Positions 1-27,414 of a stretch of DNA of 32,000 nt are shown piece after piece. The DNA comes from an archaeon (GTDB lineage: Archaea; Iainarchaeota; Iainarchaeia; Iainarchaeales; CSSED10-239). The DNA lies in NCBI GenBank assembly GCA_041677685.1, contig JBAYPN010000003.1, forward strand, positions 13,506-45,505, read 5' to 3'. Positions within the stretch are counted from its first letter, which is position 1; the number at the start of each line of letters is the position of its first letter. The notes under the pieces were generated by a model. It was given only the letters and a program-made list of their open reading frames with translations, was not told the origin of the DNA and did no database searches. Position numbers and translations under genes: made by a program.

Positions 1-3000
1 AGAAACTGTACCATCTGCAGAGTTTGTTACACAAACTTCTCTAGATTTTATTTTTTCAAAAATATTATTAATTGATTTAATTTGAGATGCCTTGCCACTA
101 CTTCCAAAACTACTTGGGTCTAAAGAAACATCAATTCCATTTTGCTTTTGAACATTTATAGAATAATCTTTATTGTATGGTGTGTAAATTATTGATCTTA
201 AATAAACTTTGCCTTGGTAATTTACAATTGGCCATTCTAATTTATATCCGTTTTTAATTGGATCTCCTGCTAAGGTAATATGATCGAAGGTATTATTAAA
301 TGAAGAATATATGTCTTCTCCTGAAAGATCACAACCTTGTCCAACACCAGTCCATCTTGTAAATGTTTCTTCTCCATAAACAGCAGTATTATTAGAGTTA
401 TCCATTATCTTATAGTAGACTTCAAAAGGAGTAATCTTTGAGTTTTTTACAGACATTAAAACTGGAGTTGCAACACTTGGACTAAATATTAAATTAACAA
501 TATCTTCTGTAGATGTTATTTTTAAAATATTTCCTCTTGTTCCTACTTCTGAATTTATTTTAAAAATATTATCTACTGCTTCTATGTTTAAATATTTAAA
601 TGGATTTGAGCCTTTATCATAATAACTTCTTACTTGATCAACTTGTGAGGCATCTCCAATAATTATATCATCATTACCTGAATAAGCCAAACCATATCCT
701 TGTCTATTATATCCTGTGTCTGCATAACCTACAAGTCCATTAAATGGTAGTCTATAGAAAGCACTACTTGTTTCTGGTCCTTTAACATATGAGAAAGTAA
801 CAAAAGAATTTAGGTCTACTTTGTTATTGTTAACCATCTTCCAACCATCATTACCAAATATAAAGTCTATATCTATATCATAAAGTCCAGGTGTAAGAAT
901 GGTTACTTCTTCTTGATTTCCTGAATATTTTAAACTATAATTTAGATTATTTATAAACAATTTAGATAAGTACCCATCATCTGTCTGACCATTAAACATT
1001 CCTGGAGATGACATTAGAGCAAACTCTCCAACACCAGCACCACTATCAATAGATGCTTTTCCACCATAGGTTCTGTCGAAATCATTTTTGAAATTTATAT
1101 TATAATTATCAGTTATTAGCTTTGCTTTAAATTTAAGTAAATTTCTTAAAGTTGAAATGTCTTCTTGACTCCAACCATTACCCCCATTAACAGTCACATT
1201 TTCAGGATATTGGTTAGCATTAAACCACATGTCTATAAAGTCAATTCCATTATAAATTAAGGTCATTGCTGGAACTTTACAACCACTTGTTTCTGGAGCT
1301 TTATAATTTTCTAAAGTTATTTCTGTGGAGAAACTATTATACTCTGAATAGTTTCCTGTGTAGTTTAATGAAAGAGAAATGTTTTCATCTAATATCTTTT
1401 GAGTATTGGAACCAAATCTAAAGATTATGTCTGAAAAGTTATCTTCTCCAGATGGTGTTATTATATCATAACTATTTGCAATTGATTGCTCATCAAACTC
1501 TCCTGTTGAGTGATTATAAATTTCTACTTTTGTTGCAGGGTAATTTTCAAAAGTAGCAGTAACTGTTCCTGTTCTACTATCATTTGTTCTATTCTCTACA
1601 GACATATGCACAATAAACTGATTATCCTCAGTTCCAAATTTAACATCTGAGATTCCAACTTTTCCAAGAGGTATTTCATTTGTTACTCCATCTTCTTCTG
1701 CAACATATTGGTAAGTTCCTTCTAATGCTTCATCAGCAACTTGTTTATTGCTCTTTGGGCATTGAACATTTCTTTGCTCAATAAATTTTTTTGCTTTATC
1801 AATTCTATTTAAAATTACTTGAGTTAGTTGTGTTGCATCACAATAATTATCTTCACAATCATAAATATTATCTAAATCCCACTTCCAATCTAAGTTAACT
1901 TCAGGAACCGCACCTGGTCCAGTAAATCCAAGTTTATCTGAGTCTGTCATACAAGAATATACATTCAGATCAACATTTGGTTTTTCTTCAGTTTTTGGTA
2001 AATGGAATTCCACTCTATATTTTCCAATTCTTTGTGAGTCTTTAAAAGCTAAGTCTTGTTGACTTAAAGAATCATTTAAGGTTGGGTAGAAGTCGTATGT
2101 TTTATATTGACTTAATCTTGAACTATTCTTTATAACGTCATAAGCTGAATTATCAATAACAAAAGTAATTGGTTTGATTCCTGCTTGTTCAGGCCAAACA
2201 GTTTCATCTGAATTACATATTGAATAAATATTAAACTCTGCATTTACTTTCTTTCTAGGAATTGAACCATCACAATCTATTTTGAAATTTGTATAATCTT
2301 CATTTGATCCTGCTTCATCAACTCTTAAATTTGAACAAATACTAGTATTAATTATATCTAAAATATATTCTTGTTCTTCAACAACCGAATTTTGATAATT
2401 ACATTTTGGCACAACTACATTTAAAGTTTTATCTTCTGCTAACTTTCCTTTAATATTTACATATTTATTTAAATAAGTAGTATATCTTGCACCAGTAACA
2501 TCAAAAATATTTAGATATTCTTCCTCTAATTCATAATTATTTAAATTAATAACTTTTAATTGTTCAAAATCACTAAAGGTATATTCATCTGAGACATCTA
2601 AAATTCTATTTGATTCCTGAATATCATAATCAGATATAAAAATTGGAGTAACTAACATTGCAATTGCTGCAGTACCGGCAAGTATCCAACCAAATGGTGG
2701 CACTATACTACCTGTTACAATTATTGTTTTTAAACCAATTAATAATGCTACTGTAATAGTTGCTGCTGCTCCAGCCCCAATTGATGTTCCTAAATAACTT
2801 CCAAATCCAGGTCCATTAGCGTTAACCAAATTCTCTTTTTCATTAAATAACATCTTTGCAAAGATAGAAGAATCACTATCAAAGCCATCACTCATAAACT
2901 TAGAAAAACCATCTCCAGCTTTTTGAGTAGAATAATCCCAAGGTGTCTTTTTTAAATTATTATTATATAGTTTCTTTGTGGAAGTAACATAAGAATTATT

Positions 3001-27414: not shown

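What the first reader, a model, noticed from the sequence alone, without database searches (positions are those of the whole stretch)
1..27414. Three tandem giants are paralogues built on one N-module blueprint
The same order of elements recurs in the 2342-aa, 1623-aa and 1-7317 products.
- A short cytoplasmic leader.
- One TM segment.
- About six CarboxypepD_reg-like repeats in the first ~600 residues.
- A shared core block: EQDSIYIKKIDFAG, ENDSLYIKSIEVPN and SDDIVYIKAIVNSL (the last hand-translated at 5281-5340).
- Ig-like segments each carrying a Cys pair: NALDSVDCLLLDP...LQNNCKVSG, MLDDSSCLTLSEY...INNTCTMNE and VYSDNCLIAEG...IKNNCRLKE.

Sequence identity is low, so these are old duplicates kept side by side. 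That argues for non-redundant roles, such as different ligands or a heteromeric assembly, rather than recent amplification.
Basis: partly seen in the sequence, partly recalled or inferred. Interest (0 to 1): 0.65.

Follow-up and report, generated by a model that had tools for sequence, protein, structure and literature searches.

The report
Ancient paralogous giant archaeal surface proteins
Three giant membrane-anchored surface proteins of an uncultured DPANN-type archaeon are ancient copies of one undescribed ~2,450-residue stalk-and-head protein; one copy has been split into two genes, and the set is kept in the same order in related genomes, so it probably forms a surface attachment or envelope apparatus.

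Summary
A (1-7317, full length 2,465 aa), E (15392-20263) and F (20386-27414) align colinearly over ~1,250-1,370 residues (BLASTP E 1e-23 to 8e-45). They still align when the generic beta-sandwich repeats are removed (57-110 bits, against at most 30 bits for shuffles).

The blueprint is a family of at least 589 clusters at 50% identity. It has a conserved ~40-aa cytoplasmic leader, one TM segment, about six prealbumin-like repeats, and a ~800-aa core that starts near residue 600. Most members add a ~900-aa C-terminal module that matches no Pfam, NCBIfam or PDB entry.

- The three genes are not strictly adjacent.
- ORF B (7407-10436) is the detached C-module of E. Both trees show a single gene fission.
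- C and D (10522-15353, GC 21%) are a lineage-specific insertion between E and B.
- The order G-F-E-B-A recurs in at least three related archaeal genomes, with orthologues 39-63% identical and paralogues ~22%.

So the duplications are old. Function is inferred: N-terminally anchored stalk-and-head surface proteins, most likely for adhesion or as envelope components. This is an uncharacterised family of a known general kind.

The parts
1..7317 (-). Gene A. Giant paralogue with fused N-module and B-type C-module. 2,439 codons lie in the window and the full product is 2,465 aa.
   Evidence: Translation. Full length (P0038). BLASTP to E and F, and its C-terminus to B. Member of the A clade, 100/100 bootstrap.
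7165..7317 (-). A leader and N-terminal TM segment (residues 1-51)
   Evidence: Hydropathy peak of 3.42 at residues 33-51. Aligns with the family leader consensus.
5518..7140 (-). A prealbumin-like (CarboxypepD_reg) repeat region, residues ~60-600
   Evidence: Pfam PF13620, 73.8 bits. Repeat profile hits at 67, 153, 226, 382, 436 and 525.
3058..5520 (-). A core block, residues 600-1420. Includes the YIK motif (5287-5328) and the Cys-pair Ig-like segment (3751-3870).
   Evidence: Core-only BLASTP of 110 bits to E and 57 bits to F, against at most 30 bits for shuffles. Motifs in register.
2635..2805 (-). A hinge: a Gly/Ala-rich hydrophobic stretch (residues 1505-1561) between the N- and C-modules
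   Evidence: Hydropathy 1.8-2.1. Seen in most long A-type representatives in the listing shown, and in only 21 of 106 long representatives overall. Aligns with B's N-terminal Gly-rich segment.
1..2634 (-). A C-module (residues 1562-2439, cut by the window edge), homologous to ORF B
   Evidence: BLASTP A 2061-2434 against B 583-970, E 1e-27, and A 1767-1855 against B 310-423, E 2e-7. Shared YCDATQ and RQGYG motifs.
7407..10436 (-). Gene B. Stand-alone secreted C-module, 1,009 aa, with a Sec-type signal peptide. It is the detached head of E.
   Evidence: Homologous to A's C-module. Orthologues are 960-1,092 aa and stand-alone. It sits next to E orthologues in relatives. The stand-alone B clade has 100/100 support and nests among C-modules of fused E-type proteins. 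No Pfam, NCBIfam or PDB match.
10522..14511 (-). Gene C. 1,329-aa N-terminally anchored L/N/K/S/I-rich protein. Part of a low-GC insertion between E and B.
   Evidence: GC 0.21 against ~0.30 for the flanks. Absent between E and B orthologues in every relative examined. No family or collection hits.
14514..15353 (-). Gene D. 279-aa N-terminally anchored protein with 16 Cys. Second gene of the insertion.
   Evidence: Its N-terminal ~100 aa resemble C's (E 5e-5). No relatives found.
15392..20263 (-). Gene E. Paralogue holding the N-module only, 1,623 aa. Its C-module was lost by gene fission.
   Evidence: BLASTP. Close orthologues are 1,516-1,935 aa and carry no C-module. It lies in a 31-member all-short subclade nested among long fused proteins.
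16004..18466 (-). E core block, residues 600-1420. Includes the YIK motif (18206-18247) and the Cys-pair segment (16610-16723).
   Evidence: The AlphaFold2 model of E 590-1623 has mean pLDDT 75, and this part is all-beta. Foldseek finds only generic tandem beta-sandwich arrays with TM-scores of about 0.3 or less.
15395..15856 (-). E C-terminal helical tail (residues ~1470-1623). Proposed docking region for B.
   Evidence: Predicted helices at low confidence. Poorly conserved, 12-16% identity to orthologues. The docking role is an inference.
20386..27414 (-). Gene F. Giant paralogue, 2,342 aa, with the N-module and a divergent C-module.
   Evidence: BLASTP. F clade has 100/100 support. Orthologues are 33-51% identical over the full length.
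23563..27414 (-). F N-module: leader and TM (27226-27414), repeats (25645-27207), core with the YIK motif (25387-25428) and the Cys-pair segment (23911-24030)
23215..23562 (-). F Asn/Tyr/Gly-rich low-complexity linker (residues ~1285-1400)
   Evidence: Read directly from the sequence.
20389..23214 (-). F C-module (residues ~1401-2342). A probable divergent relative of the B-type module.
   Evidence: hhalign of the F C-terminal family against the B family: probability 65%, E 6e-5, anchored on the G-TG...W...C...YCD.xQ segment. P0035 matches both profiles, and some F-clade proteins carry B-type modules. A stand-alone 780-aa homologue occurs in L008.
27594..29351 (-). Gene G. 585-aa protein with a pilin-like (class III signal) N-terminus. 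It is the conserved upstream neighbour of F.
   Evidence: The N-terminus K(K/R)GF(N/S)LFTALVSL... is conserved in three orthologues. G-F-E-B-A synteny. No Pfam hit.

Best explanation
**What it is.** A, E and F are ancient paralogues of one undescribed family of giant cell-surface proteins. The family is known so far only from uncultured archaea, including Iainarchaeota/Diapherotrites MAGs (DPANN).

**Ancestral protein, ~2,450 aa.**
- A conserved ~40-residue cytoplasmic leader with consensus ..YYsLEDKYY.FLDK...KIPVYKIvDPIDKviPSF.
- A single uncleaved signal-anchor TM segment, N-terminus inside.
- About six prealbumin-like beta-sandwiches.
- A core of about eight further Ig-like beta-sandwiches with invariant Cys pairs.
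- A ~900-residue Cys-containing C-terminal 'head' of unknown fold.

**How the three copies differ.**
- A keeps this form.
- F keeps it with a diverged head.
- The E lineage underwent one gene fission. E is now the stalk with a helical tail. B, which has its own signal peptide, is the detached head.
- In this genome two extra anchored proteins, C and D, were inserted between E and B.

**Context.** The set G (pilin-like)-F-E-B-A is a conserved, co-directional cluster.

**Inferred mechanism.**
- Each protein is inserted by its N-terminal anchor.
- It projects a long multi-domain stalk. The stalk holds ~15 beta-sandwich domains, so it would span tens of nanometres if extended.
- It displays the head at the cell periphery for binding another surface, such as a host cell or a polymer, or for assembling with its paralogues.
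- The different heads give non-redundant specificities.

**What is shown and what is inferred.** Paralogy, architecture, fission, age and synteny are shown. Topology, stalk geometry, E-B re-association and the adhesion function are inferred.
For: **Homology**
- E 1e-23 to 8e-45. Core-only scores are 57-110 bits, against at most 30 bits for shuffles.

**Family size and fixed architecture**
- 589 clusters at E <= 1e-3 and 311 at E <= 1e-30.
- The core starts at residue ~590-625 in most of the 150 best hits, and most of those are 2,300-2,700 aa.
- An N-terminal TM segment is present in 105 of 106 long representatives.
- The leader consensus comes from 152 representatives, with the PSF motif at 93/82/90%.

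**Domains**
- Pfam hits and the repeat profile.
- AlphaFold2 all-beta core, pLDDT 75.
- Foldseek matches only tandem beta-sandwich arrays.

**C-module**
- A's C-terminus matches B.
- A 13-sequence alignment has invariant YCDATQ and R.GYG motifs and invariant Cys.
- No known family matches.

**Fission**
- E and B orthologues are adjacent in L008, L009, L013, L014 and L016.
- They are fused in L010 and L011.
- The N-module tree and the C-module tree are congruent. The stand-alone B clade has 100/100 support.

**Age**
- Orthologues are 39-63% identical and paralogues ~22%.
- The A and F clades each have 100/100 support.

**Extracellular setting**
- All eight window proteins have an N-terminal hydrophobic segment.
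- There are many N-glycosylation sequons and conserved Cys pairs.
Against: - No experiment and no informative structural or sequence match bears on function.
- The C-module model is poor: pLDDT 58, with only generic Ig-like matches.
- Stalk length and repeat number are fixed, and the N-module is conserved as well as the C-terminal module. Many adhesins instead have stalks that vary in repeat number. This fits a fixed-geometry assembly such as an envelope lattice at least as well as a free adhesin.
- Homology of the F head to the B-type head is only moderately supported (hhalign 65%).
- The trees are distance-based NJ on Poisson distances, not ML. The 'E group' as a whole is not a supported clade (17/100).
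- The organism's exact taxonomy is not established. NCBI calls it only 'archaeon'.
Confidence: 0.6

Rival explanations
1. The paralogues, with B and perhaps G, C and D, are the structural subunits of the cell envelope. They would form a hetero-oligomeric S-layer-like lattice or canopy, not adhesins. The fixed-length stalks would set the width of the pseudo-periplasm.
For: - Archaeal S-layer proteins are typically arrays of Ig-like domains with many glycosylation sites, and they show no sequence homology between lineages (paper 10.1101/2023.10.27.564410; abstracts).
- In this family, length and domain positions are nearly invariant.
- Conservation is even along the repeat region and core.
- The set has 1:1 orthologues in a conserved order.
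- The cluster takes ~24 kb. The largest contigs of related genomes are only 0.67-0.98 Mb.
Against: - Known or proposed archaeal S-layer proteins are about 500-1,700 aa (my own knowledge). They have cleaved signal peptides and C-terminal anchors or separate stalk proteins.
- A, E and F instead have an uncleaved-looking N-terminal anchor preceded by a conserved cytoplasmic leader, and no C-terminal TM segment or PGF-CTERM.
- A lattice built from four or more different ~2,400-aa subunits would have no precedent that I know of.
- No expression data are available.
Confidence: 0.25
2. They are archaeal alpha-2-macroglobulin-like or thioester-protein-like protease traps anchored in the membrane.
For: - Weak Pfam hits to MG4 and bMG3.
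- Foldseek hits to A2M, CD109, complement C3/C4/C5 and Salmonella A2M, E 1e-12 to 1e-15.
- Like bacterial A2M, these are membrane-anchored proteins of more than 1,600 aa (my own knowledge).
Against: - No CxEQ thioester motif occurs in any of the proteins.
- There is no helical thioester domain. The N-module is all-beta, and no A2M or TED Pfam hits appear.
- Foldseek TM-scores are only 0.08-0.21 for these A2M-family hits, with rmsd ~29-40 A. Only the beads-on-a-string beta-sandwich pattern matches.
- The MG hits overlap the CarboxypepD_reg, SpaA and Big_1 hits on the same prealbumin-like repeats.
Confidence: 0.03
3. The similarity is convergent repeat composition or a recent local amplification, not ancient homologous duplication.
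For: All three proteins are rich in generic beta-sandwich repeats and share an AT-biased composition.
Against: - The alignments are colinear through the non-repeat core and far above shuffled controls.
- Motifs and Cys residues are invariant and in register.
- Each paralogue has distinct orthologues in other genomes.
- The clades have 100/100 support.
- Paralogue identity of ~22% excludes recent amplification.
Confidence: 0.01

Closest known systems
Archaeal S-layer and surface glycoproteins built of Ig-like arrays (Sulfolobales SlaA/SlaB; candidate DPANN S-layer proteins NEQ300, MJ1_0160, Micr_00292)
   Same: - They are extracellular strings of Ig-like beta-sandwich domains with many N-glycosylation sequons.
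- They have no detectable sequence homology to characterised proteins.
- They are lineage-restricted.
   Different: - Those proteins are ~1,000-1,400 aa. They have N-terminal signal peptides and either no anchor or a C-terminal TM or stalk partner.
- The proteins here are 1,600-2,500 aa. They are anchored by an N-terminal TM segment behind a conserved 40-aa cytoplasmic leader, and they carry a ~900-aa non-Ig head.
- The comparison rests on architecture only. No sequence comparison with those proteins was run here.
SPEARE giant proteins of Nanohaloarchaeota (PMC6642349)
   Same: - They are very large, mostly extracytoplasmic, membrane-anchored proteins of DPANN archaea.
- They occur in several paralogous copies that together take ~4% of the genome.
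- They are proposed to mediate host contact.
   Different: - SPEARE proteins are defined by serine-protease, laminin-G/adhesion and cytoplasmic type III restriction-endonuclease domains. Most have a C-terminal TM segment.
- None of these domains is detected here.
- The cytoplasmic part here is only a ~40-aa leader.
Tandem giant surface proteins Giant1-5 of Apilactobacillus kunkeei (PMC12863079)
   Same: They are consecutive, co-directional genes for paralogous extracellular giants that occupy several percent of a small genome (abstract).
   Different: They are bacterial, 3,000-8,000 aa, and belong to a different domain repertoire. No homology was tested or is expected. The resemblance is organisational only.
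Alpha-2-macroglobulin / thioester-containing proteins and other MG- or prealbumin-domain arrays (bacterial A2M, CD109, complement C3-C5), and PrgB Ig-like domains
   Same: The best Foldseek matches to the E core are long chains of MG- or Ig-like beta-sandwiches. Pfam also gives weak MG4 and bMG3 hits.
   Different: There is no thioester motif or thioester domain, and the TM-scores are low (0.08-0.21 for these hits). The resemblance is limited to the domain class.
Extended signal peptide region (ESPR) of very large bacterial autotransporter and two-partner-secretion passengers (my own knowledge, not tested)
   Same: It is a conserved N-terminal extension placed before the hydrophobic signal segment, found specifically on very large secreted proteins.
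   Different: It has a different sequence, is bacterial, and is cleaved. Here the segment looks like an uncleaved anchor. The analogy is a lead only.

Membership tests
Undescribed family defined here (leader - TM - prealbumin repeats - core - C-module) | Conserved ~40-aa leader (..LEDKYY..FLDK...YKI.DPIDK..PSF) directly before a single N-terminal TM segment | tested here: met
   A, E and F align to each other and to the consensus of 152 representatives. Hydropathy peaks of 3.1-3.8 lie at residues 33-61. A's leader is the most divergent.
Undescribed family defined here (leader - TM - prealbumin repeats - core - C-module) | Core block of ~800 aa beginning near residue 600, with the YIK motif, a CxxxxC motif and an invariant Cys pair | tested here: met
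   Core-only BLASTP scores 57-110 bits. The profile finds 589 clusters, with the core at residue ~590-625 in most. Invariant Cys residues are listed.
Undescribed family defined here (leader - TM - prealbumin repeats - core - C-module) | B-type C-terminal module (G.TG..LP..W, YCDATQ and R.GYG motifs) | tested here: inconclusive
   A meets it (E 1e-27). E does not carry it, and it is encoded separately as B. For F the match is a divergent one only: hhalign probability 65%, E 6e-5.
Pfam CarboxypepD_reg (PF13620) domain-containing proteins | Score above the Pfam gathering threshold (32.3 bits) | tested here: met
   A 73.8, E 49.4 and F 90.5 bits. NCBI also names E 'carboxypeptidase-like regulatory domain-containing protein'.
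Alpha-2-macroglobulin / thioester-containing proteins | Thioester motif CxEQ within a helical thioester domain | tested here: not met
   No C.EQ occurs in any window protein. The E core is all-beta. No A2M or TED Pfam families appear.
Alpha-2-macroglobulin / thioester-containing proteins | Array of macroglobulin (MG) domains in the A2M arrangement | tested here: inconclusive
   bMG3 and MG4 hits are marginal and overlap CarboxypepD_reg and SpaA hits on the same repeats. Foldseek E-values are 1e-12 to 1e-15, but TM-scores are 0.08-0.21.
Archaeal S-layer proteins | Extracellular array of Ig-like domains with many N-glycosylation sequons | tested here: met
   All-beta AlphaFold2 model. 18-34 sequons per protein.
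Archaeal S-layer proteins | Cleaved signal peptide with a C-terminal anchor (TM or PGF-CTERM) or a separate stalk subunit | tested here: not met
   A, E and F have an N-terminal signal anchor behind a cytoplasmic leader. They have no C-terminal hydrophobic segment or C-terminal PGF motif. Only B has a classical signal peptide.
Archaeal S-layer proteins | Forms a 2-D lattice and is among the most abundant proteins | not testable with these tools
   No expression or imaging data are available.
SPEARE proteins (Nanohaloarchaeota) | Serine protease, laminin-G/adhesion and cytoplasmic type III restriction-endonuclease domains | tested here: not met
   The definition comes from PMC6642349. None of these domains appears in Pfam or NCBIfam scans of A, E or F.
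Type IV pilin-like proteins (for neighbour G) | Class III signal peptide: a basic stretch, Gly at -1, then a hydrophobic helix | tested here: inconclusive
   The motif K(K/R)GF(N/S)LFTALVSL.LISITLV is conserved in four orthologues. There is no Pfam or NCBIfam pilin hit, and the protein, at 585 aa, is much larger than typical pilins.
Peptidase M6 (immune inhibitor A-like; for neighbour H) | Pfam PF05547 above threshold, with an HExxH zinc site | tested here: met
   41.1 bits against a cut-off of 22. HExxH lies at residue 298.

The most novel reading that the evidence does not exclude
The conserved G-F-E-B-A cluster may encode a previously unrecognised hetero-oligomeric surface organelle of a DPANN lineage.
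- It would be a fixed-geometry host-contact or envelope complex.
- The three stalk paralogues would co-assemble and display different heads.
- The split E and B subunits would re-associate through the helical tail of E and the Gly-rich N-terminus of B.
- The invariant 40-residue cytoplasmic leader would be a new sorting or assembly signal for giant archaeal ectoproteins. It would couple them to a cytoplasmic partner, in a role analogous to the bacterial ESPR.
Probability: 0.2. Interest if true: 0.7.

Novelty: new variant of a known kind. Interest (0 to 1): 0.45.

Why it matters
DPANN archaea have tiny genomes and are thought to live attached to other cells. For most lineages the molecules that mediate contact are unknown.

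This analysis defines a large family that is unannotated beyond the label 'carboxypeptidase-like regulatory domain-containing'.
- It holds at least 589 clusters at 50% identity.
- Its architecture is remarkably fixed.
- It has a conserved cytoplasmic leader and a ~900-residue head that matches no known family.

The analysis also shows that three or four copies are kept in one syntenic cluster of ~24 kb. For a genome of the order of 1 Mb, that is roughly 2-3% of the DNA.

The result gives concrete candidates for surface or host-interaction work, including antibodies, metaproteomics and cryo-ET. It also gives a clean natural gene fission (E+B against the fused forms) that marks the boundary between two independently folding modules.

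It does not overturn anything. Giant paralogous surface proteins are a known theme in reduced symbiotic genomes.

Tried and rejected
- **Word-indexed protein search.** A search with the three-sequence core alignment found nothing. This was a limit of the index for this AT-biased composition, not absence. The exhaustive HMMER search found 589 clusters.
- **PDB sequence searches.** B, the core profile and the B-family profile gave nothing significant.
- **Foldseek on the B model.** Against PDB and BFVD it gave only generic Ig-like sandwiches or low-probability hits. The model itself is weak, at pLDDT 58.
- **Foldseek on the E core.** It gave only tandem beta-sandwich arrays, with TM-scores of about 0.3 or less. 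A2M membership was rejected, because there is no thioester motif.
- **NCBIfam and PHROGs.** Nothing for B, C, D or G.
- **Pfam.** A scan of all 13 C-module sequences gave nothing.
- **Origin of the C/D insertion.**
  - No relatives turned up in the viral or metagenome scans.
  - The flanking repeats are only AT-rich chance matches.
- **Strain-level variation as a test for selection.** The six other contigs of the same population differ from the window by only 2-5 bases, so they carry no signal.
- **Fourth paralogue?** The 2,629-2,696-aa giant X sits upstream of G in relatives. It gives only a weak BLASTP hit to F (E 3e-4) and matches neither the core nor the C-module profile. It is not counted as a member.
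- **Upstream walk.** Walking upstream of H in this genome failed, because the contigs retrieved start there.
- **Literature.** Searches found no description of this family.
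Full report
**Layout of the window**

The window is AT-rich (GC ~0.30). It is filled by eight co-directional minus-strand ORFs separated by 2-179 nt. I call them:
- A: 1-7317, running off the window edge
- B: 7407-10436
- C: 10522-14511
- D: 14514-15353
- E: 15392-20263
- F: 20386-27414
- G: 27594-29351
- H: 29476-31839

On those contigs A is called at 2,465 aa, so the window lacks only its last 26 codons.

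**Check of the observation**

Homology of the three proteins:
- BLASTP between the three is significant and colinear. E-F gives 8e-45 (residues 1-1305 against 1-1255), A-E gives 3e-33, and A-F gives 1e-23, all at ~22% identity.
The cores alone (about residues 600-1420, and 590-1290 in F) score 110, 57 and 89 bits. The best of 200 shuffled cores scored 30 bits.

The listed elements:
- In a three-way alignment the quoted YIK blocks (A 664, E 673, F 663) occupy the same columns. So do the Cys-pair segments.
- The Cys pair, a CxxxxC motif and several other positions are invariant in a 25-sequence alignment.
- Each protein has one strong N-terminal hydrophobic segment after a 30-45-residue leader.
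- CarboxypepD_reg is above the Pfam threshold in all three.
- A repeat profile iterated on the window's own repeats finds 4-6 units between residues ~65 and 590. It finds a further one near residue 940-1010 in A and F.

Minor corrections:
- The A motif lies at 5287-5328.
- A has an extra hydrophobic stretch in mid-protein.
- The three genes are not contiguous.

*The blueprint continues into a C-terminal module, and B is such a module.*
- A's C-terminal ~900 residues are homologous to the whole of ORF B. A 2061-2434 matches B 583-970 at 1e-27, and a second segment matches at 2e-7.
- They share invariant motifs: G.TG..LP..W, YCDATQ and R.GYG, plus four or more Cys.
- The blueprint is therefore bipartite, an N-module plus a C-module. 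B is a free-standing C-module with its own Sec-type signal peptide.

*The blueprint is a large family, not a local curiosity.*
- An exhaustive HMMER search with the core profile finds 589 clusters at 50% identity with E <= 1e-3, and 311 with E <= 1e-30.
- The core starts at residue ~590-625 in most of the 150 best hits. Most of these are 2,300-2,700 aa.
- 105 of 106 long representatives have the N-terminal TM segment.
- The ~40-residue leader has a strong consensus, mgLKd.YysLEDKYY.FLDkld.kIPvYKivDpIDKviPSF, with PSF at 82-93%.
- Named relatives come only from archaeal MAGs. These include Candidatus Iainarchaeum and 'Candidatus Diapherotrites archaeon'. NCBI labels E's own record only 'archaeon'.

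**Age of the duplicates and synteny**

- In three distinct relatives (L013/L020, L014, L016) the order is G-like, F-orthologue, E-orthologue, B-orthologue, A-orthologue.
- Identity to the window protein is 39-51% for F, 45-63% for E, 43-60% for B, 39-51% for A and 37-44% for G. Cross-paralogue identity stays at 20-24%.
- Parts of the same order occur in L007-L009.
- An NJ tree of the core (187 sequences, 706 columns) gives an A clade of 15 members and an F clade of 68 members, each with 100/100 bootstrap support. The remaining 104 sequences form an unsupported 'E group'.
- The Iainarchaeum contig L010 already carries one F-clade gene and one E-group gene side by side.
- The duplications therefore long predate the divergence of these genomes.

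**The E/B fission**

- All close E orthologues (39-63% identical, 1,516-1,935 aa) lack a C-module. More distant E-group proteins (26-28% identical) are 2,300-2,800 aa and carry a B-type C-module.
- In the N-module tree, E sits in a 31-member subclade made only of short proteins. That subclade is nested among long fused ones.
- In an independent C-module tree (83 sequences), the 16 stand-alone B-type proteins are monophyletic with 100/100 support. They nest among the C-modules of fused E-group proteins. A-clade C-modules are separate, also with 100/100 support.
- In L010 and L011, a single ORF matches E over residues ~1-1500 and then B over residues ~256-984.
- Together this shows one gene fission of an E-type fused ancestor into E (stalk) and B (head). 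The two stay adjacent wherever I could look, except in this genome.

**The C/D insertion**

- Only in the window's lineage do two further genes, C and D, lie between E and B.
- Their GC content is 0.21, against ~0.30 for the flanks.
- Both have N-terminal anchors, and their first ~100 residues resemble each other.
- They have no relatives in any library or collection I searched.
- No diagnostic flanking repeats were found.
- I read this as a lineage-specific insertion of unknown origin at the fission junction.

**F's C-terminal half**

- It does not match B or A by BLAST beyond the YCD motif.
- A profile-profile comparison of the F-type C-terminal family with the B family gives 65% probability and E 6e-5 over 576 columns. 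It is anchored on the same G-TG...W...C...YCD.xQ segment.
- One representative, P0035, matches both profiles. Eight long F-clade proteins carry B-type modules.
- F's head is probably a diverged derivative of the same module. I regard this as likely, not shown.
- L008 even has a free-standing 780-aa homologue of the F head.

**Structure**

- AlphaFold2 on E 590-1623 with 25 sequences gives mean pLDDT 75. The model is a string of roughly eight beta-sandwich domains followed by low-confidence helices.
- Foldseek against the PDB returns only other bead-on-a-string beta-sandwich proteins: ciliary central-apparatus proteins, alpha-2-macroglobulins and complement proteins, PrgB, and cadherin. E-values go down to 7e-19, but TM-scores are about 0.3 or less and rmsd is 25-62 A. 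This is similarity of domain class only.
- No CxEQ thioester motif exists, so the proteins are not A2M members.
- The B model is poor, with pLDDT 58 and confident parts at ~330-700 and ~890-1000. It contains at least one Ig-like sandwich and a long helix after YCDATQ. It gives no informative PDB or viral match.
- The C-module has no Pfam, NCBIfam or PDB sequence relative.

**Mechanism (inferred)**

*Topology.* The leader-TM arrangement has no signal-peptidase-like site after the hydrophobic segment. That suggests a type II signal anchor with the N-terminus in the cytoplasm.

*Geometry.* With about six plus eight or more beta-sandwich domains, the N-module could span tens of nanometres if extended. 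This assumes ~4 nm per domain, from general knowledge. It would hold the ~900-residue Cys-stabilised head at the cell periphery.

*The split pair.* B is exported separately. To stay functional it must bind back, plausibly through E's helical tail and B's conserved Gly-rich N-terminal segment GLNPIVHGL.GGAFSGFNTY. The homologous segment of A is a more hydrophobic Gly/Ala-rich stretch, seen in most A-type long representatives and in only 21 of 106 long representatives overall.

*Function.* I favour surface display for attachment, at roughly 0.45. A structural envelope or S-layer-like lattice comes next, at roughly 0.25-0.3. A combination of the two is possible. The reasons are:
- every gene in the window encodes an exported or anchored protein;
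- a conserved pilin-like gene (G) accompanies the set;
- the heads differ between paralogues;
- the set is retained in small genomes.

*What pulls towards a defined assembly.* The fixed length and the even conservation along the N-module (40-60% per 100-residue bin) fit a defined assembly better than a freely evolving adhesin.

**Comparison with known systems**

- **DPANN S-layer candidates** (MJ1_0160, NEQ300, Micr_00292). They share Ig-like arrays and glycosylation. They are ~1,000 aa and have signal peptides with C-terminal or partner anchoring.
- **SPEARE proteins.** They share the theme of giant paralogous DPANN ectoproteins taking a few percent of the genome. They are defined by protease, laminin-G and restriction-endonuclease domains and mostly by C-terminal anchoring, none of which is found here.
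- **Giant1-5 of Apilactobacillus kunkeei.** This is an organisational analogue only.
- **Literature.** I found no paper describing this family.

**Verdict**

The finding is real and its interpretation is essentially right. It understated the case in four ways:
- The unit is a bipartite ~2,450-aa protein.
- E+B is a fission pair.
- C and D are an insertion.
- The whole G-F-E-B-A cluster is conserved in related archaea.

It is an uncharacterised family of a familiar general kind, giant multi-Ig surface proteins of reduced-genome symbionts. Its distinctive features are the conserved cytoplasmic leader, N-terminal anchoring and an unknown head. Interest is moderate.

Noticed in passing
window 10522-15353 (-): Genes C (1,329 aa, L/N/K/S/I-rich, N-terminal anchor) and D (279 aa, 16 Cys, N-terminal anchor) form a block of GC 0.21 in a 0.30 background. 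The block sits exactly at the E/B fission junction. It is absent from every related locus examined and has no homologues in any library searched. The N-terminal ~100 residues of C and D resemble each other (E 5e-5).
   Followed up: partly
window 2635-2805 (-), A residues 1505-1561: A Gly/Ala-rich hydrophobic stretch (GPGFGSYLGTSIGAGAAATITVALLIGLKTIIVTGSIVPPFGWILAGTAAIAMLVTPIF) lies between the N- and C-modules of A. It is long enough for two TM helices. A comparable mid-protein stretch appears in most A-type long representatives and in only 21 of 106 long representatives overall. It aligns with the amphipathic Gly-rich N-terminus of B. Whether it is a membrane hairpin, a membrane-active segment or a buried interface is unknown.
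   Followed up: partly
window 23215-23562 (-), F residues ~1285-1400: An Asn/Tyr/Gly-rich low-complexity ('prion-like') linker separates F's N-module from its C-module, for example NMYGGQGMYNNYYGGNINRYQ...NNGVGLNNAYGYENYNF.
   Followed up: no
window 27594-29351 (-), gene G: This 585-aa protein has a pilin-like class III signal N-terminus, QKGFNLFTALVSLMLISITLVLIF. It is conserved (37-44% identity, N-terminus nearly invariant) directly upstream of the F orthologue in all three fully syntenic relatives. It matches no Pfam, NCBIfam or PHROGs family.
   Followed up: partly
window 29476-31839 (-), gene H: H is an exported M6 (immune inhibitor A-like) metallopeptidase, 41 bits in Pfam with HExxH at residue 298. 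It has two Cys-containing repeated segments near its C-terminus. It occupies the position upstream of G. Relatives instead carry a further 2,629-2,696-aa giant (X) with prealbumin-like repeats that is not a detectable member of the A/E/F family.
   Followed up: partly
N-termini of A (7165-7317), E (20093-20263), F (27226-27414) and 152 family representatives: The ~40-residue cytoplasmic leader before the TM segment is among the best conserved parts of the whole family (Y 84%, E 86%, PSF 82-93%). It could be a sorting or assembly signal. Whether it occurs on proteins outside this family was not tested.
   Followed up: partly
L012 3222-5345 and 5218-12897: One of two adjacent A-type genes in this MAG looks split into 1,110- and 708-aa pieces. 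The break coincides with a run of N or X, which is masked sequence or an assembly gap. It is probably an artefact, not a second fission.
   Followed up: no
L008 8295-10634: A free-standing 780-aa ORF with a signal peptide is homologous to the C-terminal part of F (residues 1724-2339, E 7e-33). It lies just downstream of the B orthologue. This suggests that head modules of the F type can also exist as separate genes.
   Followed up: no
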